Shown: piece after piece, positions 9,871-56,555 of the stretch
Layout: each line of letters opens with the position of its first letter
Position numbering within the stretch: the first letter of the stretch is position 1
Source: an uncultured Actinomycetes bacterium
GTDB lineage: Bacteria; Actinomycetota; UBA4738; JBBDHU01
DNA: 64,000 nt
Direction: 5' to 3'
Assembly (NCBI GenBank): GCA_964640385.1
Contig: CAZXFL010000003.1
Location: 100,725-164,724 of the forward strand
Translations under genes and position numbers: made by a program
Notes under the pieces: generated by a model
Told to the model about the DNA's origin: nothing
Seen by the model: the letters and a program-made list of their open reading frames with translations, nothing else
Databases searched by the model: none

Positions 9871-12000
9871 CTAGCAGGCTCCCGCTGCGGCGCAGACCCC
9901 GATGTCTCCCAGCGTGCCGTTCGCCCCGCCGTCGCCGTCGAGCCCGTCGTCCTCGCCCGTCCCTTGGACGGCTGGGGCACTTGCGCCACCGGTCCCCCCG
10001 GTTCCGCCGCTCCCGCCGCTGATGGTGTTACCGGAGATCACGGGTGCGCTCGCCGCTCCGGACCGGTAGATCCCCCAACTGGAGCCGCCGGCGCCCCCGC
10101 CACCGCCCCCGCCATGACCACCGTGGGCTCCGGCGCCACCGGCGCCCGGGCTGGACGATCCGGGGTGCAGACCCGGAAGCCCGCCAGAGCCACCCGGCTG
10201 GCCGCGGCCGCCGCTTCCGCCGTTCCCACCGTTGCCACCATTCCCTCGCTGGATGTCGTTGCCGGAGATCGTCGGAGAGGAGTCGATGACATAGATGGCG
10301 AATGATCCGCCTCCAGCGCCGCCTCCGCCGCCGCCCCCGCGAGCGGCAAGTCCTCCAGCGCCGCCTCCACCGCCGCCGCCGCCCCAGGCGTCCGTCCCGC
10401 TATCGCACCCGCCGCCGCCTCCTCCTCCTCCTCCTCCGCTCCCGTTCTGACCTGTGCCGCCGCCGCTGGCTGCCGATCCGAACCACAATTCCCCAGACAA
10501 GAAGCCTCCTGAGCCGCCCCCGGCCCCGGCTGATCCATTGACGACCATGCCGGGAGAACCAGTGCCTCCGGCCGTGCCGCCGCCGGCGTCGCAACCGGCT
10601 GAGTTCGCCGGGCCGCCGGTCCCCTGAGCGCCCGCGCCGCCCGACGTGAAGTCGGCGGACGACCCGACGTCGCCGGAGGTGGCGGTCAGATCGAAGGGGC
10701 AGCTGTTGTCCATCTCCCCGCCGGCGCCGCCGGCGCCGCCGTCCATGTCGCGCGAACTCGGTGAGGTGCCCGAATTCGTCCCGCGTGATCCCCCGGCACC
10801 GTGGCTCGTGTCATCGCAGGCCAGCTGCTCGGCACCGGATCCCCCTTGATCACCGGAGGGCGCCGCAGTGAGCGTCGTCGCATCCCAACCGTTCCCACCG
10901 TCTGCTCCGTCCGCGCCGTCGCCCGCGATGATGGTGTTCCCCGAGATCGTGAGGACACCCGCCGGCACGTCCTCGACGAGGATCGTGTACGACGCCTTCA
11001 TCGATCCGCCGACACCCGTGGTGGAATTCGCCCCCTGCAGTGTGAGATCGGCCAGGATCGTCGGCTGGGTCAGCCCCTCGGCTGCGACGGTGACGGTCAT
11101 GGTCCGGTCCGGAGTCGCTGTCGTTACGACGGCGCCGTCGATGCCCTGCACGGTGGCCTCGTGACCGGGCGACTGAGGCGACGCGCGTAGGTACGATTGG
11201 TCGTAGCCGCCATAGACGCTCACGCCGTTGGCCATCTGGAAGAACCCGCTCGGGTAACTACCGGCCGCGACGTAGACGTCCCGATGCCCATTTGCAGCCG
11301 CGGTATCGATGCCCTGCTGGACGGTGGCACACGGGGAAGCCATCGTGCAGGCAAATCCCGAACCGGTTGTGGCAACGAAAGCCGCCTCGGCGACCTCGCC
11401 GTCGATCCCGTCGCAGTTGACGTCAACGAAGATCGTGTCCGGAAGGTCCGCGAGGCCTGGATGCACGCTGGGGTCGGCCGGTGCGCAGTCGCCGGTGGCC
11501 GGAGAGTATCCATCGCCGTCCGCATCCAGGGTCTTGGTCGGCACCGTCTTGCTCCGGGCCTGATTCCCGGAGCGATCGGTGACGGGCTTGGAGCGCGTGC
11601 GCTTGTAGGTGAGCCCGGGTGCGGCGGCCAAATCGGGCGAGCCACTCTCGGTCAATACGATCGTGATCGTCTTCCCCTGCGCGGCGCCGGCGCTCGCAAC
11701 CGAGTATCCCGCGACCTTGAAGGGGTACTTCCCGTCGGCATCGGCTTGGTGTCGAACCTTCTCGTTGTACGTGATGAGGATGCGGTCGACCTGGCCATCC
11801 GCGTCCAGATCCAGCATGGCAGCGCTGACGATCTTCGGCGGCTTCCGATCCGCGGCTCGTGCGTGCGGTGGGGGCAGGATAGCGGCAAGGACGAGTACTG
11901 GAACGATGATGGCTCGTGGGGTTCGGCGCACCGCGGAGATCCTCCCTCTCCGGAAGTATGAGCCGACCCTGTGTGGCTGTCGAGTCGCGTCTACGACTCC
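9871..12000 (-). CDS. large secreted glycine-rich parallel beta-helix repeat protein with MopE-like metal-binding motifs
   Basis: Signal region (RTPRAIIVPVLVLAAILPPPHARA). DADGDGYSPATGDCAPADP...DVNCDGIDGE is a putative MopE-type metal-binding motif. Repeated ISGNTI/ISGNDI beta-helix caps and long Gly-rich tracts. The ORF track extends it artificially through the tRNA. Confidence 0.6.
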   Translation of the reverse strand, partial: GVVDATRQPHRVGSYFRRGRISAVRRTPRAIIVPVLVLAAILPPPHARAADRKPPKIVSAAMLDLDADGQVDRILITYNEKVRHQADADGKYPFKVAGYSVASAGAAQGKTITIVLTESGSPDLAAAPGLTYKRTRSKPVTDRSGNQARSKTVPTKTLDADGDGYSPATGDCAPADPSVHPGLADLPDTIFVDVNCDGIDGEVAEAAFVATTGSGFACTMASPCATVQQGIDTAAANGHRDVYVAAGSYPSGFFQMANGVSVYGGYDQSYLRASPQSPGHEATVQGIDGAVVTTATPDRTMTVTVAAEGLTQPTILADLTLQGANSTTGVGGSMKASYTILVEDVPAGVLTISGNTIIAGDGADGADGGNGWDATTLTAAPSGDQGGSGAEQLACDDTSHGAGGSRGTNSGTSPSSRDMDGGAGGAGGEMDNSCPFDLTATSGDVGSSADFTSGGAGAQGTGGPANSAGCDAGGGTAGGTGSPGMVVNGSAGAGGGSGGFLSGELWFGSAASGGGTGQNGSGGGGGGGGGGCDSGTDAWGGGGGGGGAGGLAARGGGGGGGAGGGSFAIYVIDSSPTISGNDIQRGNGGNGGNGGSGGRGQPGGSGGLPGLHPGSSSPGAGGAGAHGGHGGGGGGGAGGSSWGIYRSGAASAPVISGNTISGGSGGTGGTGGASAPAVQGTGEDDGLDGDGGANGTLGDIGVCAAAGAC

Positions 12001-12004
12001 TTCG

Positions 12005-12096
12005 AGCATATGAGCGGAGGCGGACGGGAATCGAACCCGCCGGAGAACTTGCGTCCCCCCACCGGTTTTGAAGACCGGGGGGCCCACCAGGAACCC
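12005..12096 (-). tRNA. selC: class-II tRNA with anticodon UCA (tRNA-Sec/selC candidate, or a Ser-type opal suppressor)
   Basis: Minus-strand fold: acceptor GGAGGCG/CGCCTCC with discriminator G; 3-bp D-stem with a GG-containing 11-nt D-loop; anticodon stem CCGGT/ACCGG with loop CUUCAAA (the same loop as E. coli selC); a ~20-nt variable arm forming a 6-bp hairpin with a GCAA loop; T-arm GGCGGG-TTCGATT-CCCGTC. The acceptor plus T-stem total 13 bp, as in tRNA-Sec. Confidence 0.5.
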
Positions 12097-12244
12097 TGAC
12101 GCCTCCGTGGGGCAGCCTATCCGTCCGGCGCCGTCGGCACGGTCGGGTCGCGACCGATCTCGCAGGCCGGGTTAGGCTACGTCGATGGAACCGGGTCCCG
12201 TGCGGGCCTCGATCTCGACTTCCTGATCTGAAGGAGCTGGCGAA

Positions 12245-35901: not shown

Positions 35902-38580
35902 GTGTGGTGGTTGGCGCTGGTCGCTGAGGATCCCCGGCGGATCCGTCCAGATCGGATACCGCCACACAACCTGGACGCTGAGGAATCGGTCCTCGGCTCC
36001 ATGATGCTGTCCGGCGAAGCCATCGCTGACGTCGTGTCCCAGCTCAAGGCCGACGACTTCTACCGTTCGGCTAACGGCACCATCTTCAAGGCCATCCTGT
36101 CGATCTACGCCCACGGCTCGCCCGTCGACGCCATCACCGTCGTCGAGGAGCTGAAGCGCGGCGGAAACCTCGAGCAGATCGGGGGTCACCTCTACGTCCA
36201 CGAGCTGGTGCAGAACGTCGCGACCCCGGCCAGCGCGGCTCACTACGCGCGGATCGTCGGGGAACTGGCGCTCCTGCGGCGGATGATCGCGGCGGCCGGC
36301 AGGATCATGGAGCTCGGCTACTCCAACCCCCGCGACCCCGAACGCACAGCAGATGATGCCGAGGACCTCATCTACAAAGTCGCCCGCCACAGCGAGCAGG
36401 ACGAGGTCGTGTCGATGGCGGCGCTCGTCGATGGCGCCATCACCGAACTCGAGAAGTCCCAGCAGCACGATTCGCCGTTCGTCGGGGTCCCCACCGGCTT
36501 CACCGACCTGGACTCGCTGACCGCGGGCCTGCACCCGGGGAACCTGATCGTGATCGCCGCGCGTCCGGGCGTCGGGAAATCCTCCCTCGTGACCAATCTG
36601 GCGCGCAACGTGGCGGTCGCGGCCGGCACCTCCGTCGCCATGTTCTCGCTCGAGATGTCGCGCTGGGAGATCGGCATGCGTCTGCTCTGCGGCGAGGCGA
36701 GGGTCCCCTGGGACAACATCCGCGGCAAGCGGACGAGCCCCGACGACTGGGCCCGCATCGTGGAGGCCGCCGAAGTCCTGAACGAGGCTCCGCTGTTCGT
36801 GGTCGACTCGGGCAACATCAACATCGTGGACATCAGGGCGAAGGCCCGGCGGCTCCGGTCCAAGCCGGGCCTGGGCATGATCATCGTCGACTACCTCCAG
36901 CTCATGTCCTCGCCGGGCCGCGTCGAGTCGCGCCAGCAGGAGATCGCCGAGATCAGCCGGAACCTTAAGCTGCTGGCCAAGGAGATGGAGATCCCGGTCA
37001 TCGCGGTCTCCCAGCTCAACCGCGACCCGGAGCGCCGGCAGGACAAGCGGCCTCAACTCTCGGACCTGCGCGAATGCGTGACCGGCGACACGTTGGTATG
37101 CCTCGCCGACGGGAGCCGGGTTCCGATCCGCGGGTTGGTCGGCTCAACGCCCGAGGTCCTCGCCGTCTCGGCCGAAGGCCGTCTGGTCGTCGCCGGCAGC
37201 GACCGGGTGTGGTCGAAGGGGAACAAACCGGTTTTCGCGGTCCAGACCGCGACCGGACGGATGATGCGGGTGACCGCGCGTCACCGTGTGCTCACCGAAC
37301 GAGGGTGGACGCGGGTACACGACCTGGAGGTGGGTGACCGGCTGGCCCTCGCCCGCAAGATGCCCGAGCCCGCCAACCCGCTCCAGTGGCCGGACGACCA
37401 TGTGATGCTCCTCGCACACCTGATCGCCGCGGCGGATCTGTCGGGCCACCCCGTGGCCTACGGCACCCGCTTCGAGGAGAACGCCCGCGCGGTGACCGCA
37501 GCGGCGCGCCAGAGCTTCGACATCACACCGGAGTGGATCGAGGGCGAGCGGCACGCCGTGTCCTTCGACGGCACGGACCACCCGAACGCGTTCGACGACT
37601 GGTTGAACGGGCTCTCGCTCGCGGGGCGCCGGCGGCCGGAGCTGAGGGTTCCCGGTGACGTCTTCCGTCTGGCGGACGCGCAGATCGCGAGGTTCTTGCG
37701 GCACCTGTGGGCCGACGCGGGCGCCATCGCTCCCGGGGTGGTCGGCGGCGGGATGGCCGACATGTGGTTCTCCGCGACCGGGCGGGGGCTCGCCGAGGAC
37801 GTTGCTGCGCTGCTCTTGCGAGTGGGGGTCGTCGCCCAGCTTCACGACGCCTCGACCGGCGCGGCGGACCGATATGAGGTCGCGGTGGTCGGCGTCGACG
37901 AGCAGGCCCGGTTCCTCGAACGTGTCGGAGCGTTCGGGCCGCTGGTTCCGTCGGCCGAGCAGCTCGCGCTGGTGCTGACCAGCATGGCCGACGTCACGAT
38001 CAGCTCCCTGCCGCGTGAGGTCTTCGACGGCAACGGGAACGGTGCCCACGGCATCTCGTCCCGGATGACGGCGGCCCTGCGAGGGACGACGTCGGGCGGC
38101 GGGGACGCGGGTTCGACGGGCGAGGCGCGTCCGTGGCACCCGAGCCGGACGGGCAAGGCGGGGACCGGAGGCGGTGCCACCGGCGTCGATCCGGACGCAG
38201 CAGCGGACGAGTCGCCCGTTCCGACAGCCGGCGGGCGGGACCTGCTCTGGGACCCGGTCGTATCGGTGGTGATCGACGGCGAGGAGGAGGTCTTCGATCT
38301 CACCGTGCCGGGACCGGCTTCCTGGCTCGCGGACGGTGTCGTGAGCCACAACTCCGGTGCCATCGAGCAGGACGCCGACATCGTCATGTTCATCCACCGC
38401 GAGGATTCCGAGGATCCGCAGGTCAAGGGCACCGCCGACCTGATTATCGCCAAGCACCGCAACGGACCGACCGGCGTCGTGAAACTGACGTTCCTGCCGC
38501 AGCTGACGCAGTTCAAGAACTACGCGCCCCCACAGGCCGTCGGCAACTACCCGCCGCAGTCGCAGCCGACCGGTCCGTGA
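35902..38580 (+). CDS. dnaB: replicative DNA helicase DnaB containing a 426-aa intein
   Basis: N- and C-exteins align with DnaB (Walker A GVGKSS; ...QLSDLRE | SGAIEQDADIVMFIHRED...). The insert begins with Cys and ends with ...VVSHN followed by Ser. Confidence 0.9.
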   Translation: MWWLALVAEDPRRIRPDRIPPHNLDAEESVLGSMMLSGEAIADVVSQLKADDFYRSANGTIFKAILSIYAHGSPVDAITVVEELKRGGNLEQIGGHLYVHELVQNVATPASAAHYARIVGELALLRRMIAAAGRIMELGYSNPRDPERTADDAEDLIYKVARHSEQDEVVSMAALVDGAITELEKSQQHDSPFVGVPTGFTDLDSLTAGLHPGNLIVIAARPGVGKSSLVTNLARNVAVAAGTSVAMFSLEMSRWEIGMRLLCGEARVPWDNIRGKRTSPDDWARIVEAAEVLNEAPLFVVDSGNINIVDIRAKARRLRSKPGLGMIIVDYLQLMSSPGRVESRQQEIAEISRNLKLLAKEMEIPVIAVSQLNRDPERRQDKRPQLSDLRECVTGDTLVCLADGSRVPIRGLVGSTPEVLAVSAEGRLVVAGSDRVWSKGNKPVFAVQTATGRMMRVTARHRVLTERGWTRVHDLEVGDRLALARKMPEPANPLQWPDDHVMLLAHLIAAADLSGHPVAYGTRFEENARAVTAAARQSFDITPEWIEGERHAVSFDGTDHPNAFDDWLNGLSLAGRRRPELRVPGDVFRLADAQIARFLRHLWADAGAIAPGVVGGGMADMWFSATGRGLAEDVAALLLRVGVVAQLHDASTGAADRYEVAVVGVDEQARFLERVGAFGPLVPSAEQLALVLTSMADVTISSLPREVFDGNGNGAHGISSRMTAALRGTTSGGGDAGSTGEARPWHPSRTGKAGTGGGATGVDPDAAADESPVPTAGGRDLLWDPVVSVVIDGEEEVFDLTVPGPASWLADGVVSHNSGAIEQDADIVMFIHREDSEDPQVKGTADLIIAKHRNGPTGVVKLTFLPQLTQFKNYAPPQAVGNYPPQSQPTGP
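37075..38352 (+). other. DnaB intein (splicing domain plus LAGLIDADG-type homing-endonuclease remnant)
   Basis: Intein block A CVTGDTLV. C-terminal HN followed by the +1 Ser. Internal LAGLIDADG-like blocks (LLAHLIAAADLSG; FLRHLWADAGAI). Inserted in the conserved DnaB ATPase H4 site, as in known DnaB-b inteins. Confidence 0.85.
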
Positions 38581-47501: not shown

Positions 47502-47628
47502 CCGTCCGTTCCGGGCTCCGGTCGATGCGAGTACACTCCTGAGTCGTGACTCAGGATTCCACTGTGGCGGCCGCTAGTTCCGCCGCTACCTCGGTGCCGA
47601 AACCCGAAATACCTGAGGGTAGGCATGG

Positions 47629-50148
<2,520 letters not shown>

Positions 50149-50152
<4 letters not shown>

Positions 50153-51267
50153 ACACCGACGACATCAGGCGCGAGTGGTTCGAACGGGACTACTACAAAG
50201 ATCTCGGGGTTCCGAAGAACGCCGGCCAGGCCGACATCAAGAAGGCATACCGCAAGCTGGCGCAGCAGCATCACCCCGACGCGAACGCCGGGAACAAGGA
50301 AGCTGAGGAGCGCTTCAAGGAGATCTCCTCGGCCTACGACGTGCTGGGCGACGCCGCGAAGCGCAAGTCCTACGACCAGGTCCGTGAAGCGGCAGCGTCG
50401 GGGTTCGGTCCCGGTGGCTTCGGCGGTGGCGGAGCAGGAGCGGGATGGCCGGGCGGCGGGCGGTACCAGCAGGTCGACGTCGGGGACCTCGGCGATATCT
50501 TCGGCGATCTGCTCGGCGGCGGATTCAGTGGTAGGTCGCGGCGACGTCAGCCCGCACGCGGCGCGGACCTCGAGACCCACGTCCAGGTGTCCTTCGAAGA
50601 CGCGATGTCGGGAACGCAGGTCCCGGTCACGATCCGCGGCGCGGCGAGTTGTTCGCGATGCCACGGGAGCGGCGCCGAGCCCGGGACGTCGCCGATCACC
50701 TGCCCGCAGTGCGGTGGGTCCGGACAGGTCGCCGTCAATCAGGGCCCGTTCTCGATGGCACAGCCGTGTCCGCGATGCGGCGGTCAGGGACGCGTGGTCG
50801 AGCACGCGTGTACGACCTGCCGCGGCTCCGGCCACGTGAACAAGAAGCGCACGCTCAAGGTCAAGATCCCCGCGGGCGTCAAGGACGGCGCACACATCAA
50901 GCTCGCCGGTCGGGGTGAACCTGGCCCGGTCGGCTCGAAGCCCGGGGATCTGTACGTGGTCGTCGGCGTGGCTGCGCACCCGCTGTTCGGACGCAAGGGC
51001 AACAACCTCACGGTCGAGGTGCCGATCGGCTACGCGGACGCGGCGCTCGGGGCGCAGGTCTCCGTGCCGACCCTGAACGGGCCGGTGACCCTAAAAGTTC
51101 CGGACGGCACGCCCAGTGGCAAGACGTTCCGCATCAAGGGCAAGGGCGTGCCCACCAAGAGCGGCGCAGGTGACCTGCTGGCGACGGTCAAAGTCGACGT
51201 GCCGACGAAGGTGTCGAAGCAAGAGAAGGAGCTGCTCAAGCAGCTCCAGGAGTTGAAGTCGAAGTGA
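50149..51267 (+). CDS. dnaJ: molecular chaperone DnaJ
   Basis: J-domain DYYKDLGV...HHPD. Four CxxCxGxG zinc-finger repeats. No ATG/GTG/TTG in frame between the upstream stop (50062) and the J-domain; CTG 50149 overlaps the grpE stop. Confidence 0.85.
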
Positions 51268-51674
51268 GCGAACGACGGGAGCACGAGGAACGCAAGGAGC
51301 GGAGCGATGACGCGGCCGTTTACATCATCAGCGTGGCCGCTGAGCTCGCGGGTGTGCACCCACAGACGCTGCGTTTCTACGAGAAGAAGGGGTTGCTTAA
51401 CCCGGCGCGCAGTCGCGGCACCCAGCGGCGGTACTCGGACCGCGACATCGCCAGGATGCGCGCGATCCAGCACCTGACGCAAGGTGAGGGGATCAACCTG
51501 GCCGGGGCCAAGATGATCATGGAGATGCAAGCGCAGATCGAACAGATGCGGGCGCAGGTGCAGCGGATGCAGGAACAGATGCGGCGTTCGCGCGCGGCGG
51601 CGCGCGAACAGACCGGCCTGGTTCCGCTGCGCGATATCCCCCTCATGCCCTGGCAGGAGGGCCTGATGCGCTGA
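51264..51674 (+). CDS. hspR: heat-shock repressor HspR (MerR family)
   Basis: MerR-type HTH ([26 protein letters not shown]) in the dnaK-grpE-dnaJ-hspR arrangement. Confidence 0.85.
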
Positions 51675-54262
51675 TGGATCTGTCGAAGCTCACGCTGAAG
51701 TCGCAGACGGCGCTCGAGGGCGCCATCGACGAGGGCAAGCGCCAGAACCAGCAGGCGGTCGAACCCGAGCACGTGCTGTTCGCGCTGCTCTCGGACCCCG
51801 AAGGGGTCGTCTACCCGCTGCTGCATCACCTCGGGGTCTCCCCGCGGACGCTCCGCGATCGGGTTGCCGACGCGGTTGACAAGCTGCCGAAGGTGTACGC
51901 GCAGGGCGCGGCGGCGCAGGACGTGAGCCTGTCGCCACAGACGTCGCAGATGCTCGAGCGCGCGTTCGTGATCGCTCAGGAGATGACCGACGAGTACGTC
52001 TCGACCGAACACCTGCTACTAGCGATGCTCGACGGGACCGGTCCGGCGGCGGAGTTGCTCACCGAGGCGGGGCTGACGCGCGACAGCGCCTTGGCTGCTC
52101 TGGCTGAGGTCCGCGGGCGCCAGCGCGTGACCGACCAGAACCCTGAGGACAAGTACCAGGCTCTCGAGAAGTACGGGCGCGACCTGACCGACCTTGCGCG
52201 CGAGGGCAAGCTCGACCCCGTCATCGGCCGCGACGACGAGGTCCGCCGGATCATCCAGGTCCTGTCCCGGCGCACGAAGAACAACCCGGTGCTGATCGGC
52301 GAGCCCGGCGTCGGCAAGACGGCCATCGTCGAGGGCCTCGCGCAACGCATCGTGGACGGCGACGTTCCCGAGGGGCTGAAGGGCAAGCGCGTCGTCGGGC
52401 TGGATCTGGGCGCGATGGTCGCCGGCGCGAAGTACCGCGGCGAGTTCGAGGACCGGTTCAAGGCGGTTCTGAAGGAGATCACCGAGTCCGGCGGCCAGAT
52501 CATCACGTTCATCGATGAGCTGCACACCATCGTCGGCGCCGGTGCGGCCGAAGGTGCGATGGATGCGGGCAACATGATCAAGCCGATGCTGGCGCGCGGT
52601 GAACTGCGCGCGATCGGTGCGACCACCTTGGACGAGTACCGCACCAGCATCGAGAAGGACGCGGCCCTCGAACGCCGGTTCCAGCCTGTCTACGTCGAGC
52701 AGCCGTCGGTCGAGGACACGATCGCGATCCTGCGCGGCCTCAAGGAGCGCTACGAGGTTCACCATGGCGTCCGCATCCAAGACTCCGCGCTGGTCGCGGC
52801 CGCGATCCTGTCCGACCGCTACCTGTCCGGCCGGTTCCTGCCGGACAAGGCGATCGACCTGATGGACGAATCGGCCTCACGCCTGCGCATCGAGATCGAC
52901 TCGATGCCGGTCGAGATCGACGAGGTCGACCGTCGGGTCAAGCAACTCGAGATCGAACGCGCCGCGCTCAAGAAGGAGAAGGACGCCGCCTCCAAGGAAC
53001 GCCGGGAGAAGCTCGAGAAGGAACTGGCCGACCTCGGCGAGCGCAGCGAGGGCATGAAGGCGCACTGGGTCCGCGAGAAGGACCACATCGGCCGGATCCG
53101 AGGGCTGAACTCCGAGATCGAGGACGTCAAGGCCGACGCCGAACGCGCGGAGCGCGAGGGCAACCTCGAGCGTGCCGCCGAACTGCGCTACTCGCGGCTG
53201 GTCGAGCTTCAGAAGGAGATGGAGACCGAGAACGCCAAGCTCGCCGAACTCCAGTCGGATCTGAAGATGCTCAAGGAAGAGGTCGATGACGAGGATGTCG
53301 CCGAGGTTGTCTCGAAGTGGACCGGCGTCCCGGTCTCCAAGCTGATGGAGGGCGAGATCGGCAAGCTCGTCCGGATGGAGGACGAGCTGCACGAGCGCGT
53401 CGTCGGCCAGGACGAGGCGGTGGATGCGGTCTCGGACGCGATCCGGCGTTCGCGCGCGGGTCTGGCGGATCCACACCGCCCCATCGGCTCGTTCATGTTC
53501 TTGGGACCGACCGGTGTCGGCAAGACCGAGCTGGCGCGGGCGCTGGCTGAGTACCTGTTCGATGACGAACGCGCGATGGTGCGGATCGACATGAGCGAGT
53601 ACCAGGAGCGTCACGCGGTCTCGCGACTGGTCGGCGCGCCGCCGGGCTACGTCGGCTACGAGGAGGGTGGCCAGCTCACCGAATCGATCCGCCGCAGGCC
53701 GTACTCGGTCGTGCTGCTCGACGAGATGGAGAAGGCGCACCAGGACGTGTTCAACATCCTGCTGCAGGTCCTGGACGACGGGCGCCTGACCGACGGGCAA
53801 GGCCGCACGGTCGACTTCCGAAACGCGATCCTGATCATGACGTCGAACCTGGGGGGCGCGGTGTTCGCCGAGCCCGGGACCGACGAGGAGCACGAGGAAG
53901 CGGTGCTGGAAGCCGTCCGCGCAACGTTCCGCCCGGAGTTCATCAACCGGGTGGACGAGCTGCTGGTCTTCTCGCCCCTCAAGCGCGACGACATGGTCAA
54001 GATCGTCGACATCCAGATCGAGTTGCTGCGCAAGCGCCTCGAGGAGCGCCACGTGAAGCTGGACCTCTCCGACGGCGCCCTGCAGTACCTGGCGAACAAG
54101 GGCTACGACCTCGCGTACGGTGCCCGGCCGCTGAAGCGCCTGATCCAGAAGGAGCTGGTCGACGCCCTCGCCATCAAGCTGCTGAACGGCGAGATCGCCG
54201 ACGGAGCCACCGTTCGGGTGGACAGCGGCAATGGCGGCCTGACCTTGTCGCCGGGGGCCTGA
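51674..54262 (+). CDS. clpB: ATP-dependent chaperone ClpB
   Basis: Two AAA+ modules (GEPGVGKT; GPTGVGKT) with a coiled-coil middle domain. Full length, 862 aa. Confidence 0.95.
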
Positions 54263-54263
54263 C

Positions 54264-55118
54264 ATGGCACGGAGCCAAGCGCGCGGCGAGGATCCGGACC
54301 CGCAAACGAAGGTGGGCGCCCAGCATCTGTCGAGCATCATGGGCCCGTGGACCGACCGGTCGATCCGCCAACGGGCGATCGTGTTCGGCGCGCTCTGCGA
54401 AGCGATGGCGCTGTTCATGTTGATCCTGCTGGTCGCCGGTACGCCGATCCCGGCCAAGTTCGTGCTGTACGCGATGTTCGCCGGGCCGCTCCTCGCTCTG
54501 GCGTACTATGCCAGCCAGCACGCCCGCAAGACGCTGATCGACGAGGTCCACCGACTTGGCCTCCGCTTCTCGGCCAAGGACCCATTCAACCTACGAGCGC
54601 TCTCGCTTCCGGCTTTCCGAGCATCCGGGGAGCATCGAATCGAATGGGTTGGCTCCGGGGAGTGGCAGGGAGTCGAGGTGCTCCTGTTCGGCTACTACTA
54701 CTGCCCCGTCCTCGAGAAGAACGGCAAGAACCGAACGTGCGTGATCATCAAGCAGCCCTTCCATGCCCCGGCGCTCGACATCGGACGGGAGGACGCAGGC
54801 TCACGGCTTGCGGGAGCGCTCGGGCTGGACGATGTGCAGTTCGAGTCCGACGGGTTCAACGACACGTTCCGTGTCACCTCGGACGACAAACGATTCGCGT
54901 ATGCCTTGGTTGACCAGCGCATGATGGACTGGTTGGCAGCGGCACCGGTCTACGGGTTCCAGGTCGCTGGCAACGCCGTGATGGTGGTGGCGCCGCACGT
55001 GGTGCCGAAGGAGCTCGAGTCGTTCCTCGGTCTTGCGAAGGACTTCGTCGACCAGATCCCACGGGCCGTCCGAAGCCTCTATCGTGCCGAGCCGACCGTG
55101 ACCCGATGGGAAGCGTGA
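54264..55118 (+). CDS. DUF3137-like membrane protein, paralog 1
   Basis: N-terminal TM pair. Shares motifs with the next gene (YYY...FSC...TIGRE...GMxDxxFExxxFNxxFxV...DKRFAxxxVDxRMMxWL). Confidence 0.5.
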   Translation: MARSQARGEDPDPQTKVGAQHLSSIMGPWTDRSIRQRAIVFGALCEAMALFMLILLVAGTPIPAKFVLYAMFAGPLLALAYYASQHARKTLIDEVHRLGLRFSAKDPFNLRALSLPAFRASGEHRIEWVGSGEWQGVEVLLFGYYYCPVLEKNGKNRTCVIIKQPFHAPALDIGREDAGSRLAGALGLDDVQFESDGFNDTFRVTSDDKRFAYALVDQRMMDWLAAAPVYGFQVAGNAVMVVAPHVVPKELESFLGLAKDFVDQIPRAVRSLYRAEPTVTRWEA

Positions 55119-55201
55119 GACCACGTGCGTCTGCCGACCTGGGTTGAGCCGTCCGTGCCGGAGGTTGACCTTCGGTAGGCGCCTGACCGAGACTTCCCGT
55201 C

Positions 55202-55891
55202 GTGGAATGGTTGATCTTCGTCGGGATCGCGGTGTTGGTGGGCTGCATCGCCTACCTCTCCTACTACCTCAAGAAGAAGCGGCTCGCCGAGCTCAAGATG
55301 ATGGCTGCACAGCTCGGTCTGGAGTTCTGGGGCGAGGACATCGAGGGGCTGCTGCTGCACCCGTTCAGTCTGTTCCAGCGCGGGGACGGCAGGGGGGTCG
55401 AGAACGTGATGCGGGGCGAGTGGCAGGGTATCCCGCTCCGCCAGTTCGACTACTGGTACTACGAGGAATCGACCGATTCCGACGGCAACCGGTCGCGCTC
55501 CTACTCCCGCTTCTCGTGCGCGCTTGGCTGGATCGACGCGGCGTGCTCTCCGGTCACGATCGGGCGCGAGAACCTGTTCACGCGGCTCGCCGACCACATG
55601 GGCATGCCCGATATCGAGTTCGAGCTGGAGGAGTTCAACCACGCGTTCAACGTGAAAGGAAAGGACCGCAAGTTCGCGTTCGACTTCGTGGACGCGCGGA
55701 TGATGCGTTGGCTCCTGGACGTCGGGGGTGAGTTCGAGTTCGAGGTCGTGGCGAACGAGCTGCTCGCCTACTCGAAACGCCGACGACCCACCGAGCTGAT
55801 CCCCCTCCTGGGCACGCTCAAGGGGTTCCGGGAGCAGGTCCCGCGGGTGGTGTACGAGCTGTACGGGAGGGGCGGCTCGACGGTAGGGTGA
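55202..55891 (+). CDS. DUF3137-like membrane protein, paralog 2
   Basis: One N-terminal TM helix. Paralog of 54264-55118. Confidence 0.5.
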   Translation: MEWLIFVGIAVLVGCIAYLSYYLKKKRLAELKMMAAQLGLEFWGEDIEGLLLHPFSLFQRGDGRGVENVMRGEWQGIPLRQFDYWYYEESTDSDGNRSRSYSRFSCALGWIDAACSPVTIGRENLFTRLADHMGMPDIEFELEEFNHAFNVKGKDRKFAFDFVDARMMRWLLDVGGEFEFEVVANELLAYSKRRRPTELIPLLGTLKGFREQVPRVVYELYGRGGSTVG

Positions 55892-55925
55892 ACGCACGAA
55901 CGACGAAACAGGAGCGTGAGCAGAC

Positions 55926-56555
55926 ATGACACCCATCTACATCCTCATCGGCATCGTGGCGCTGATCGTGATCGTCGCGATCGTGTCCTACAACCGGTTC
56001 GTCTCGCAGCGGAACCTGATCCGGGATTCGTGGGCGAACATCGACACCGAGCTCCGGCGCCGGTACGACCTGATCCCGAACCTGATCGAGACGGTCAAAG
56101 GCTACGCCGCGCACGAGAAAGAGACCCTTGAGAACGTGACCAAGGCGCGGGCGATGGCCGTCGCTGCACAGGACCCCGAGGCCGCCGCGCAGGCTGACAA
56201 TATCCTGACCGCCGCCCTGCGTCAGCTGTTCGCGGTGTCGGAGAACTACCCGAACCTGAAGGCCAACGAGAACTTCCTGCAGTTGCAGAACGAGCTGGCG
56301 AACACCGAGGACAGGATCCAGACCTCACGCCGCTTCTACAACGCGAACGTGCGCGACTACAACCGTCGCGTGCAGTCCTTCCCGTCGATGATCATCGCGA
56401 AGTTCGGCAAGTTCACCGCGGAGAAGTTCTTCGAGATTGACGAGGCGATGCGCGAAGCGGGCCCACCGAAGGTGGACTTCGGCGGCGCCGGGGCCCCGGC
56501 TGCGGGTGCACCGCGTCCTGCGCCACCCGCCGCCTCAACTCCGCCTGCCGAGTAG
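55926..56555 (+). CDS. lemA: LemA family protein
   Basis: N-terminal TM followed by the LemA domain (YNRFVSQRNLIRDSWANIDTELRRRYDLIPNLIETVKGYAAHEKETLENV...FYNANVRDYNRRVQSFP). Confidence 0.85.
   Translation: MTPIYILIGIVALIVIVAIVSYNRFVSQRNLIRDSWANIDTELRRRYDLIPNLIETVKGYAAHEKETLENVTKARAMAVAAQDPEAAAQADNILTAALRQLFAVSENYPNLKANENFLQLQNELANTEDRIQTSRRFYNANVRDYNRRVQSFPSMIIAKFGKFTAEKFFEIDEAMREAGPPKVDFGGAGAPAAGAPRPAPPAASTPPAE

What the first reader, a model, noticed from the sequence alone, without database searches (positions are those of the whole stretch)
54264..56555. Two tandem DUF3137-like membrane paralogs plus LemA placed directly after clpB
The genes at 54264-55118 and 55202-55891 are clear paralogs, sharing the block ...E(W)QG...YYY...FSCA...TIGRE.N...GMPD.EFELE.FN..F.V.G.D.KFA.DFVD.RMM.WL... 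Each has one or two N-terminal TM helices. They are followed 35 nt later by lemA.

The first paralog's ATG is 2 nt after the clpB stop, so the trio is probably co-transcribed with the HspR heat-shock regulon. LemA plus DUF3137-type partners are uncharacterised membrane modules. Their linkage to the chaperone operon suggests an envelope-stress role.
Basis: partly seen in the sequence, partly recalled or inferred. Interest (0 to 1): 0.5.

Follow-up and report, generated by a model that had tools for sequence, protein, structure and literature searches.

The report
TtfA-like membrane paralogs plus LemA after clpB
The two "DUF3137-like" genes after clpB are real paralogs and remote relatives of TtfA, the essential mycobacterial mycolate-export factor, and with LemA they sit beside the heat-shock operon in most of the 80 closest related Actinomycetota genomes examined.

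Summary
Genes A (54264-55118) and B (55202-55891) are paralogs (32% identity, E 3e-32), and lemA follows (Pfam 2.6e-59). A starts 1 nt after the clpB stop.

Across 80 related MAG loci:
- lemA follows the DUF3137-like gene in 74 of 74 loci with room.
- hspR lies upstream in 53 of 57.
- clpB lies between them in 47 of 57.
- pspC plus a liaF-like gene are inserted just upstream of the B-type gene in 16.

One correction: B-lemA has its own conserved promoter-like element, and a strong hairpin precedes it. So only A is firmly tied to the clpB transcript.

The most likely function is a membrane-anchored scaffold on the cytoplasmic face that acts in heat or membrane stress. This is inferred, not shown.

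The parts
47627..47674 (+). dnaK promoter with overlapping HAIR-like (HspR operator-like) half-sites. -35 is TTGACA at 47631, followed by ACTCAAG, and -10 is TAGACT.
   Evidence: The promoter scan found it as the only + strand hit in 47-58 kb. Two HAIR matches with 3 mismatches lie at 47630-47650 and 47654-47674. The motif AAnTTGnCAAT..ACTCAAGTTCTAT is conserved upstream of dnaK in 49/49 loci and found nowhere else in 1.36 Mb.
47706..51674 (+). dnaK (47706-49565), grpE (49562-50152), dnaJ (about 50149-51267, apparent CTG start) and hspR (MerR family, 51264-51674). All overlap or abut one another.
   Evidence: ORFs. hspR hits MerR_1 at 9.3e-23. The J-domain reading frame was checked.
51674..54262 (+). 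clpB (862 aa). Its ATG overlaps the hspR stop.
   Evidence: Pfam AAA_2 8.2e-69, ClpB_D2-small and Clp_N.
54264..55118 (+). Paralog A. It has a variable N-terminal tail, a two-helix membrane hairpin (39-57, 62-80) and a TtfA-fold cytoplasmic domain (about 98-275). It is translationally coupled to clpB.
55127..55182 (+). Very stable GC-rich hairpin in the 83-nt A-B spacer, with no U tail. It could be a terminator, a processing element or an insulator.
   Evidence: Fold of 55100-55215: -55.6 kcal/mol, z -4.18, with 0/200 shuffles folding as well. The terminator scan did not call it.
55166..55195 (+). Promoter-like element for B-lemA: TTGACC, 18 nt, GAGACT, ending 6 nt before the GTG start. This spacing fits a leaderless-type transcript.
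   Evidence: Sequence. The same layout occurs in L001 (TTGACC-N18-CAGACT, then the ATG) although the upstream gene differs. A related element, TTGnnn-N17/18-CGATAC(T/C), lies 5-9 nt before the start codon in at least 54/80 loci.
55202..55891 (+). Paralog B, the conserved canonical copy. It has one N-terminal membrane helix (1-19), then KKKR, then a TtfA-fold cytoplasmic domain.
55926..56555 (+). lemA. It has one N-terminal membrane helix (4-22), a cytoplasmic four-helix-bundle domain and a Pro/Ala-rich tail.
   Evidence: Pfam LemA 2.6e-59. PDB 2etd_A E 2.5e-44. NCBIfam MamQ 4.9e-26, below its cut-off. It is adjacent to the DUF3137-like gene in 74/74 loci.

Best explanation
**What it is.** The region is the membrane-facing end of a gene string conserved in a large uncultured Actinomycetota clade. 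The string runs dnaK-grpE-dnaJ-hspR-(GNAT)-clpB-[TtfA-like copy]-(pspC-liaF)-[TtfA-like copy]-lemA.

**The proteins.**
- A and B are membrane-anchored. Their roughly 200-residue C-terminal domain faces the cytoplasm and has the fold of TtfA, the essential partner of the MmpL3 mycolate exporter.
- LemA is a single-pass protein with a cytoplasmic helical bundle.

**Expression.**
- A is translated in step with ClpB from the HspR-controlled operon.
- B and lemA form an invariant pair. They have their own promoter-like element and may also receive read-through.

**Proposed mechanism.** The three proteins act as scaffolds or adaptors on the inner face of the membrane. They would hold or stabilise a membrane-embedded client (a transporter or an envelope-lipid machine) when heat or membrane stress threatens it, as TtfA does for MmpL3.

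**Shown.** Paralogy, fold, profile-level homology to TtfA, gene order and its conservation, and the absence of a gap between clpB and A.

**Inferred.** Topology, HspR control, the promoter, and the whole functional step.
For: Paralogy.

TtfA fold, from template-free models built without any TtfA sequence:

Sequence-level support:
- hhalign gives 94.3%, E 9.8e-8, over 174 columns.
- 6T84 is the top PDB hit of the family profile, at E 0.03.

Same architecture as TtfA: an N-terminal membrane helix and a C-terminal domain shown experimentally to be cytoplasmic (PMC6593404). Here the family mean net charge after the last membrane helix is +2.7.

Same genomic position as ttfA:
- In Nocardia farcinica ttfA lies 0.9 kb downstream of clpB on the same strand.
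- In M. tuberculosis Rv0383c sits next to Rv0384c (clpB). Both are in the 103-gene reaeration response with dnaK-grpE-dnaJ-hspR, acr2 and htpX (PMC2905415).

Synteny: counts.

Stress links:
- pspC plus a liaF-like gene lie directly upstream of the B-type gene in 16/80 relatives.
- lemA-htpX/M48 pairs occur in Listeria, Bacteroides and Mycobacterium.
- A LemA-like domain is predicted to scaffold PimA-EphE at the cytoplasmic membrane face (preprint 10.64898/2026.07.15.738315).

A is under purifying selection: differences from L001 by codon position are 26/18/72.
Against: - No expression, interaction or phenotype data exist for this clade.
- Identity to TtfA is only 14-15%, and the family profile against the PDB is marginal (E 0.03).
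- No client is identified. No MmpL gene is among the ten largest ORFs of the window.
- B-lemA has its own promoter-like element and a strong hairpin upstream. The HAIR-like motif occurs only at dnaK. Heat-shock control of B-lemA is therefore unproven.
- The clpB link is not universal. Eight loci go from hspR to the DUF3137-like genes without clpB. Four loci with more than 6 kb of upstream sequence have no hspR within it. Nonomuraea has no such gene within 5 kb of clpB.
- The 80 loci are the best of 292 hits and represent one clade, not a random sample.
Confidence: 0.55

Rival explanations
1. A and B are dedicated accessory factors of a lipid or RND-type exporter, with a TtfA-like job in envelope lipid transport. 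Their place beside the heat-shock genes is inherited gene order with no regulatory meaning.
For: They are homologous to TtfA in fold and profile. ttfA keeps the clpB-adjacent position in Mycobacteriales although its known role is TMM export. B-lemA has its own promoter-like element.
Against: No MmpL/RND gene was seen in the window's large ORFs, and none was noticed in the loci, which were not searched for one. The clade lies outside the mycolate producers to which TtfA was thought confined. A overlaps the clpB transcript with a 1-nt spacer in all three close relatives. In M. tuberculosis ttfA is co-induced with the heat-shock genes.
Confidence: 0.2
2. B and LemA are effector or sensor parts of a Psp/Lia-type membrane-integrity system, working with PspC and a LiaF-like protein. 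They would sense or repair membrane damage rather than scaffold a specific client.
For: pspC (Pfam 3.7e-23 and 9.4e-26) and a liaF-like gene sit directly upstream of B-lemA in 16/80 loci. This includes L025, where the unit is far from clpB. MamQ, a LemA relative, is needed for magnetosome membrane formation (PMC4902198, listed; the role itself is from my own knowledge).
Against: The window has no pspC or liaF homologue, and 64/80 loci lack them at this site. Two large comparative studies of Psp partners never mention LemA. No PspA gene was noticed in the loci, which were not searched for one.
Confidence: 0.15
3. The genes are unrelated neighbours. The conserved order reflects slow genome rearrangement in one clade, and A is a decaying duplicate.
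For: All loci come from one uncultured clade. A has only two close relatives and is far more divergent than B.
Against: The order survives many local changes. These include loss of clpB, gain of a GNAT gene, of pspC-liaF, of a toxin-antitoxin pair and of a histidine kinase, at protein identities down to about 50%. The lemA pairing holds in 74/74 loci. A shows third-position-biased substitutions and no frameshift.
Confidence: 0.05

Closest known systems
TtfA (TMM transport factor A; Rv0383c / MSMEG_0736; PDB 6T84; precomputed Pfam PF28092)
   Different: Identity is 14-15%. A and B lack TtfA's long disordered C-terminal tail. A has two membrane helices. The genes occur in organisms outside the mycolate producers and are paired with lemA, which is not next to ttfA in Nocardia. 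No MmpL3 partner is known here. The PF28092 model could not be run because it is absent from the local Pfam copy.
DUF3137 (Pfam PF11335)
   Same: It is the only Pfam family hit by A, B and 36/75 relatives. Some homologues carry it as a precomputed annotation.
   Different: A (20.8 bits) and B (17.6 bits) fall below the 26.1-bit gathering score, and the matches cover only about 50 of 139 profile positions. The family has no described function (two incidental mentions in the literature).
LemA family (PF04011; Thermotoga TM0961, PDB 2ETD; MamQ)
   Same: The Pfam match is full length (199.8 bits) and 2ETD matches at E 2.5e-44. The protein has one N-terminal membrane helix.
   Different: In the six other organisms sampled, lemA comes first and is followed by HtpX/M48, DUF2207 or YgcG/TPM genes. 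Here it comes last, after a TtfA-like gene. The MamQ equivalog score (91.6) is far below its cut-off of 250.
HspR/HAIR-controlled dnaK and clpB operons of Actinobacteria
   Same: The dnaK-grpE-dnaJ-hspR order is kept. The repressor is of the MerR type. A HAIR-like ACTCAAG half-site overlaps the dnaK promoter.
   Different: clpB is fused to the dnaK operon (the hspR stop overlaps the clpB start) instead of having its own HAIR promoter. The operon is extended by membrane protein genes. The operator departs from the CTTGAGT-N7-ACTCAAG consensus by 3 mismatches.
CCDC47 (PAT complex of the ER multipass translocon) and CesT/SycE-type secretion chaperones
   Different: The scores are far lower than for TtfA and there is no sequence signal. 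This is a resemblance of fold class only.

Membership tests
LemA (PF04011) | Pfam HMM match above the gathering score over the full domain | tested here: met
   199.8 bits against 26.2, profile positions 1-149 of 149.
LemA (PF04011) | Homology to the solved LemA four-helix bundle, plus one N-terminal membrane helix | tested here: met
   2etd_A E 2.5e-44 over residues 23-178. Hydrophobic helix at 4-22 followed by +3/-1 charge.
DUF3137 (PF11335) | Pfam HMM match above the gathering score (26.1 bits) | tested here: not met
   A scores 20.8 bits and B 17.6 bits, covering about 50 of 139 profile positions.
DUF3137 (PF11335) | Relatives of the protein belong to the family | tested here: inconclusive
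   36/75 members of alignment A5 hit DUF3137 at E<=1e-3 (best 1.7e-8) and no other family. Seven of the 120 listed homologues carry the precomputed PF11335 annotation.
TtfA family (6T84 / PF28092) | Fold of the soluble domain | tested here: met
TtfA family (6T84 / PF28092) | Sequence homology | tested here: inconclusive
   hhalign gives 94.3% (E 9.8e-8) and 90.2% (E 1.6e-6). The profile against the PDB gives only E 0.03. The narrower profiles A2 and A3 give no hit. The TtfA HMM finds nothing in the 80 loci. This supports a shared superfamily, not membership of the TtfA family itself.
TtfA family (6T84 / PF28092) | Match to the Pfam PF28092 model | not testable with these tools
   PF28092 is precomputed for the Nocardia orthologues. 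It is absent from the local Pfam library: the Nocardia TtfA itself returns no family.
TtfA family (6T84 / PF28092) | N-terminal membrane anchor with a cytoplasmic C-terminal domain | tested here: met
   This is prediction only, from hydrophobic helices and positive-inside charge. For TtfA it was shown experimentally.
TtfA family (6T84 / PF28092) | Gene downstream of clpB | tested here: met
   A starts 1 nt after clpB. Nocardia ttfA lies 0.9 kb after clpB. In M. tuberculosis the tags are Rv0383c and Rv0384c.
TtfA family (6T84 / PF28092) | Complex with MmpL3 and requirement for TMM export; restriction to mycolate producers | not testable with these tools
   No MmpL is among the large window ORFs. 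The hosts are uncultured MAGs. The published distribution is 'mycolate-producing organisms'.
HspR regulon | HAIR operator (CTTGAGT-N7-ACTCAAG) at the promoter that drives the genes | tested here: inconclusive
   Two sites with 3 mismatches overlap the dnaK promoter. The motif is conserved in the clade at dnaK only. None lies before clpB, A, B or lemA.
HspR regulon | Uninterrupted co-orientation with the operon, with no terminator | tested here: met
   This holds for A: overlapping or abutting genes from dnaK to A and no + strand terminator call. For B-lemA it is doubtful because of the hairpin and the separate promoter-like element.
Psp/Lia envelope-stress module | PspC and/or LiaF genes in the locus | tested here: not met
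   There is no homologue anywhere in the window. They are present directly upstream of the B-type gene in 16/80 relatives.

The most novel reading that the evidence does not exclude
TtfA-type proteins are ancestral members of the actinobacterial HspR/ClpB heat-shock gene cluster, and mycobacterial TtfA is a specialised descendant of the clpB-adjacent copy. If so, these proteins couple the chaperone response to the membrane. They could do this by protecting a transporter or by bringing DnaK/ClpB to membrane clients. Mycolate export through MmpL3 would then be wired directly to the heat-shock regulon.
Probability: 0.2. Interest if true: 0.8.

Novelty: new variant of a known kind. Interest (0 to 1): 0.62.

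Why it matters
**Why TtfA makes this matter.** TtfA is essential in M. tuberculosis and works with MmpL3, a leading drug target. It was published as having no recognisable domains and no homologues outside mycolate producers.

**What this locus adds.**
- TtfA would belong to a much larger family: 5,421 cluster representatives at E<=1e-3.
- In deep-branching Actinomycetota that family sits in the heat-shock operon and is always paired with LemA.
- This gives TtfA an evolutionary origin and offers a reason why ttfA lies beside clpB.
- It also gives DUF3137-like proteins, which have no described function, and LemA, whose function is poorly defined, a testable role as scaffolds on the inner face of the membrane.

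**Limit.** Only homology and gene order are shown. The function is inferred.

Tried and rejected
- **Canonical HAIR scan.** With at most 2 mismatches over all loci it found only two sites, both at dnaK. I replaced it with a clade-specific matrix.
- **Narrow profiles against the PDB.** A2 and A3 gave no TtfA hit. Only the broad 75-sequence profile did, and weakly.
- **A2 against a single TtfA sequence.** hhalign probability was 1.2%. A2 against the TtfA alignment gave 27%.
- **AlphaFold database fold search.** This library was unavailable.
- **B against plasmid records.** There was one weak hit, a Nostoc protein with DUF3592 plus a DUF3137-like domain and no lemA nearby.
- **Nonomuraea.** Nothing TtfA-like or DUF3137-like lies within 5 kb of clpB, so the link is not universal in Actinomycetes.
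- **First regular expression for the B promoter.** It used the wrong spacing and under-counted, with 9 hits and fewer than in shuffles. The count of at least 54/80 rests on the -10-like CGATAC core 5-9 nt from the start codon.
- **Defence-system reading.** There were no PADLOC hits.
- **Relocated kinase.** The kinase between A and B in the relatives is not the window's other PAS-HisKA_3 kinase moved elsewhere. Identity is 33% over the kinase core only.
- **A as a pseudogene.** Rejected on the substitution pattern.
Full report
**1. What is in the sequence**

The + strand from 47.7 to 56.6 kb carries eight tightly packed genes:
- dnaK, 47706-49565
- grpE, 49562-50152
- dnaJ, to 51267
- a MerR-type hspR, 51264-51674
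- clpB, 51674-54262
- gene A, 54264-55118
- gene B, 55202-55891
- lemA, 55926-56555

A convergent MFS transporter gene follows.

The clpB stop (54260-54262) is separated from the ATG of A by one base. A and B align over 223 residues at 32% identity, E 3e-32. A 46-nt stretch is still 74% identical between them at the DNA level. LemA is unambiguous: Pfam 199.8 bits and PDB 2ETD at E 2.5e-44.

**2. Family assignment**

DUF3137 is the only Pfam family that A and B touch. Both are below the curated threshold (20.8 and 17.6 bits against 26.1). NCBIfam and PADLOC give nothing useful. Of 75 family members, 36 hit DUF3137 at E<=1e-3 and no other family. The group is therefore a divergent branch near DUF3137.

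The two copies differ sharply in how widely they are found:
- B has 665 homologues in the 90%-clustered protein collection, all from uncultured Actinomycetota.
- A has only itself and two relatives at 74-76% identity.
- A profile of the family finds 5,421 cluster representatives at E<=1e-3.

**3. The fold is that of TtfA**

AlphaFold2 was run without templates, on alignments that contain no TtfA sequence. It gave confident models: B at pLDDT 90.6 and pTM 0.83, A at pLDDT 80.9.

To test sequence homology I recovered a bona fide TtfA orthologue from a Nocardia farcinica chromosome piece (phmmer to 6T84, E 3.4e-43). I then collected its family and compared alignments:
- The broad DUF3137-like alignment against TtfA gives 94.3% probability, E 9.8e-8. 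It spans 174 columns and nearly the whole soluble domain.
- The alignment of divergent clpB-side copies gives 90.2%, E 1.6e-6.
- The same broad profile ranks 6T84 first in the whole PDB, but only at E 0.03.
- Narrower profiles find nothing.

I read this as remote homology at superfamily level, not membership of the TtfA family proper.

**4. Architecture and topology**

Published work describes TtfA as follows (PMC6593404):
- It has a membrane helix at residues 2-24.
- Its C-terminus was shown to be cytoplasmic.
- Residues 1-205 are conserved.
- BLAST homologues were found only in mycolate producers.

The window proteins compare as follows:
- B has the same plan: a helix at 1-19, then KKKR.
- LemA has a helix at 4-22 followed by net positive charge.
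- A has an Arg-rich segment, a two-helix hairpin (39-57, 62-80) and then the domain.
- Across 72 family members the 15 residues after the last N-terminal helix carry a mean net charge of +2.7.

All three proteins are therefore predicted to put their folded domains on the cytoplasmic face.

**5. Conservation of gene order**

One scan of species-representative genomes found 292 relatives. I analysed the best 80 loci, all from MAGs.

| Feature | Count |
|---|---|
| lemA directly after the last DUF3137-like gene (gaps 24-449 nt) | 74 of 74 loci with room |
| hspR upstream, among loci with more than 6 kb of upstream sequence | 53 of 57 |
| clpB between hspR and the DUF3137-like genes | 47 of 57 |
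| hspR to DUF3137-like genes with no clpB | 8 loci |
| One DUF3137-like copy | 47 loci |
| Two copies | 28 loci |
| Three or more copies | 5 loci |

Each locus has one canonical copy scoring 290-410 bits. Any extra copy is fast-evolving (50-170 bits). It usually lies on the clpB side and sometimes on the lemA side.

The order survives many local changes:
- a GNAT-like gene between hspR and clpB;
- a toxin-antitoxin pair;
- an opposite-strand MASE1-PAS histidine kinase gene between A and B in both closest relatives.

In 16 loci a PspC-domain gene and a LiaF-like gene sit directly upstream of the canonical copy (Pfam PspC 3.7e-23 and 9.4e-26; LiaF-like_C 8.4e-7). The window has neither.

**6. 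The same position in mycolate producers**

In Nocardia farcinica the order is clpB, a DUF5666 gene, ttfA, an ORF I read as a short-chain dehydrogenase (not tested), then pyrE, identified by eye from its translation.

In M. tuberculosis ttfA is Rv0383c and clpB is Rv0384c. Both appear in the 103-gene "Reaeration Response" together with Rv0350-0353 (dnaK, grpE, dnaJ1, hspR), Rv0251c and htpX (PMC2905415). That the consecutive locus tags mean direct adjacency, and that these genes make up the HspR regulon, rests on my own knowledge.

No searchable paper links TtfA to DUF3137, LemA, clpB or HspR.

**7. Transcription**

*dnaK promoter.* A sigma-70-like promoter (TTGACA-18-TAGACT) with two overlapping HAIR-like sites lies upstream of dnaK. 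The clade-wide motif AAnTTGnCAAT..ACTCAAGTTCTAT occurs before dnaK in 49 of 49 loci and nowhere else in 1.36 Mb.

*A.* A has no room for its own promoter. All three close relatives keep a start codon 1-2 nt after the clpB stop. A is therefore very probably made from the chaperone transcript.

*B-lemA.* This pair differs in four ways:
- The 83-nt A-B spacer folds into a hairpin of -55.6 kcal/mol, z -4.2.
- B has no Shine-Dalgarno sequence.
- A TTGACC-N18-GAGACT element ends 6 nt before the B start codon. The same layout is kept in L001, where the upstream gene is different.
- At least 54 of 80 loci have TTGnnn-N17/18-CGATAC(T/C) 5-9 nt before the start.

The promoter reading is an inference from pattern and spacing. 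If it is right, B-lemA is a leaderless-type unit of its own that may also receive read-through.

**8. What LemA usually keeps company with**

I sampled six lemA loci from other organisms:
- Listeria: followed by htpX.
- Bacteroides: followed by an M48 peptidase.
- Mycobacterium branderi: followed by an M48 peptidase.
- Sulfitobacter: followed by DUF2207.
- Streptomyces: followed by a protein with a DUF2207 C-terminal domain.
- Ralstonia: followed by YgcG/TPM genes.

[quoted passage not shown] It calls that protein a membrane-associated scaffold. MamQ, a LemA relative, is a magnetosome membrane biogenesis factor (PMC4902198, listed; the role itself is from my own knowledge).

**9. Interpretation**

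The best-supported reading is a set of membrane-anchored scaffolds or adaptors on the cytoplasmic face, tied to the heat-shock cluster. A is co-produced with ClpB. B and LemA form an obligate pair. The client is unknown.

Three rivals remain:
- a pure lipid-export accessory role, with the gene order merely inherited;
- a Psp/Lia-type membrane-integrity role;
- chance neighbourhood.

The first two cannot be excluded and overlap with the main reading. The third is weak given the 74 of 74 pairing and the survival of the order through many insertions and losses.

**10. Limits**
- There are no expression or interaction data.
- All relatives are MAGs of unknown class.
- Only the top 80 of 292 genome hits were examined.
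- Pfam PF28092 could not be run.
- The AlphaFold database fold library was unavailable.

Noticed in passing
window 50149-50341: The J-domain of dnaJ is in frame and intact, but no ATG, GTG or TTG precedes it. The likely start is a CTG at 50149 that overlaps the grpE stop (TCCTGA). The same CTG is the annotated start in relative L001. Other gene callers truncate DnaJ to 308-311 aa, which loses the J-domain.
   Followed up: partly
window 55127-55182: An unusually stable hairpin lies in the A-B spacer (-55.6 kcal/mol for 55100-55215, z -4.2) with no U tail. Its 3' arm contains the -35-like TTGACC of the B promoter-like element. In both closest relatives this spot holds an opposite-strand MASE1-PAS-HisKA_3 kinase gene instead.
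   Followed up: partly
L004, L011, L012, L018, L020, L025, L027, L030, L034: about 15-35 nt upstream of the B-type start: In the sub-clade with pspC-liaF, the stretch between the -35-like and -10-like boxes is a palindrome, CACC-N9-11-GGTG. Its centre varies but stays self-complementary (for example caccggtcgggccggtg and cacccccgcgcggggtg). It could be an operator or the terminator hairpin of the upstream liaF-like gene. This is unresolved.
   Followed up: no
L003 2836-3582 (same contig as L001): A fragmentary third DUF3137-like reading frame (two pieces, 70 bits) lies between hspR and clpB, next to an inserted Gp49/HTH toxin-antitoxin-like pair. It looks like the remnant of a copy directly after hspR, as seen in loci that lack clpB.
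   Followed up: no
L006, L014, L031 and about 40 other loci, between hspR and clpB: A GNAT-like acetyltransferase gene of about 180 aa (..NxAMRRVxExLGFxFEGVMRGFMP..DYAMY..) is inserted between hspR and clpB and abuts the clpB start. It is absent from the window, where hspR and clpB overlap. It was identified by eye and not run through Pfam.
   Followed up: no
window 35902-38580 (+): The replicative helicase DnaB is interrupted by an intein with a LAGLIDADG homing-endonuclease domain (Intein_splicing 2e-14, LAGLIDADG_3 4.5e-8).
   Followed up: no
window 12016-12106 (-): A selenocysteine tRNA (Rfam tRNA-Sec, 78.8 bits) abuts the long ORF 9871-12087, which has no Pfam hit.
   Followed up: no
L085 3584-4636 (Nostoc carneum plasmid3): A cyanobacterial 350-aa protein joins a DUF3592 membrane domain to a DUF3137-like domain (family HMM E 4.2e-21). 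No lemA is nearby, so the domain occurs outside Actinomycetota in other architectures.
   Followed up: partly
L086 7508-8389 (Nocardia farcinica): A Pro/Gln-rich membrane protein with a DUF5666 domain (8.8e-9) sits between clpB and ttfA. It was not checked in other Mycobacteriales.
   Followed up: no
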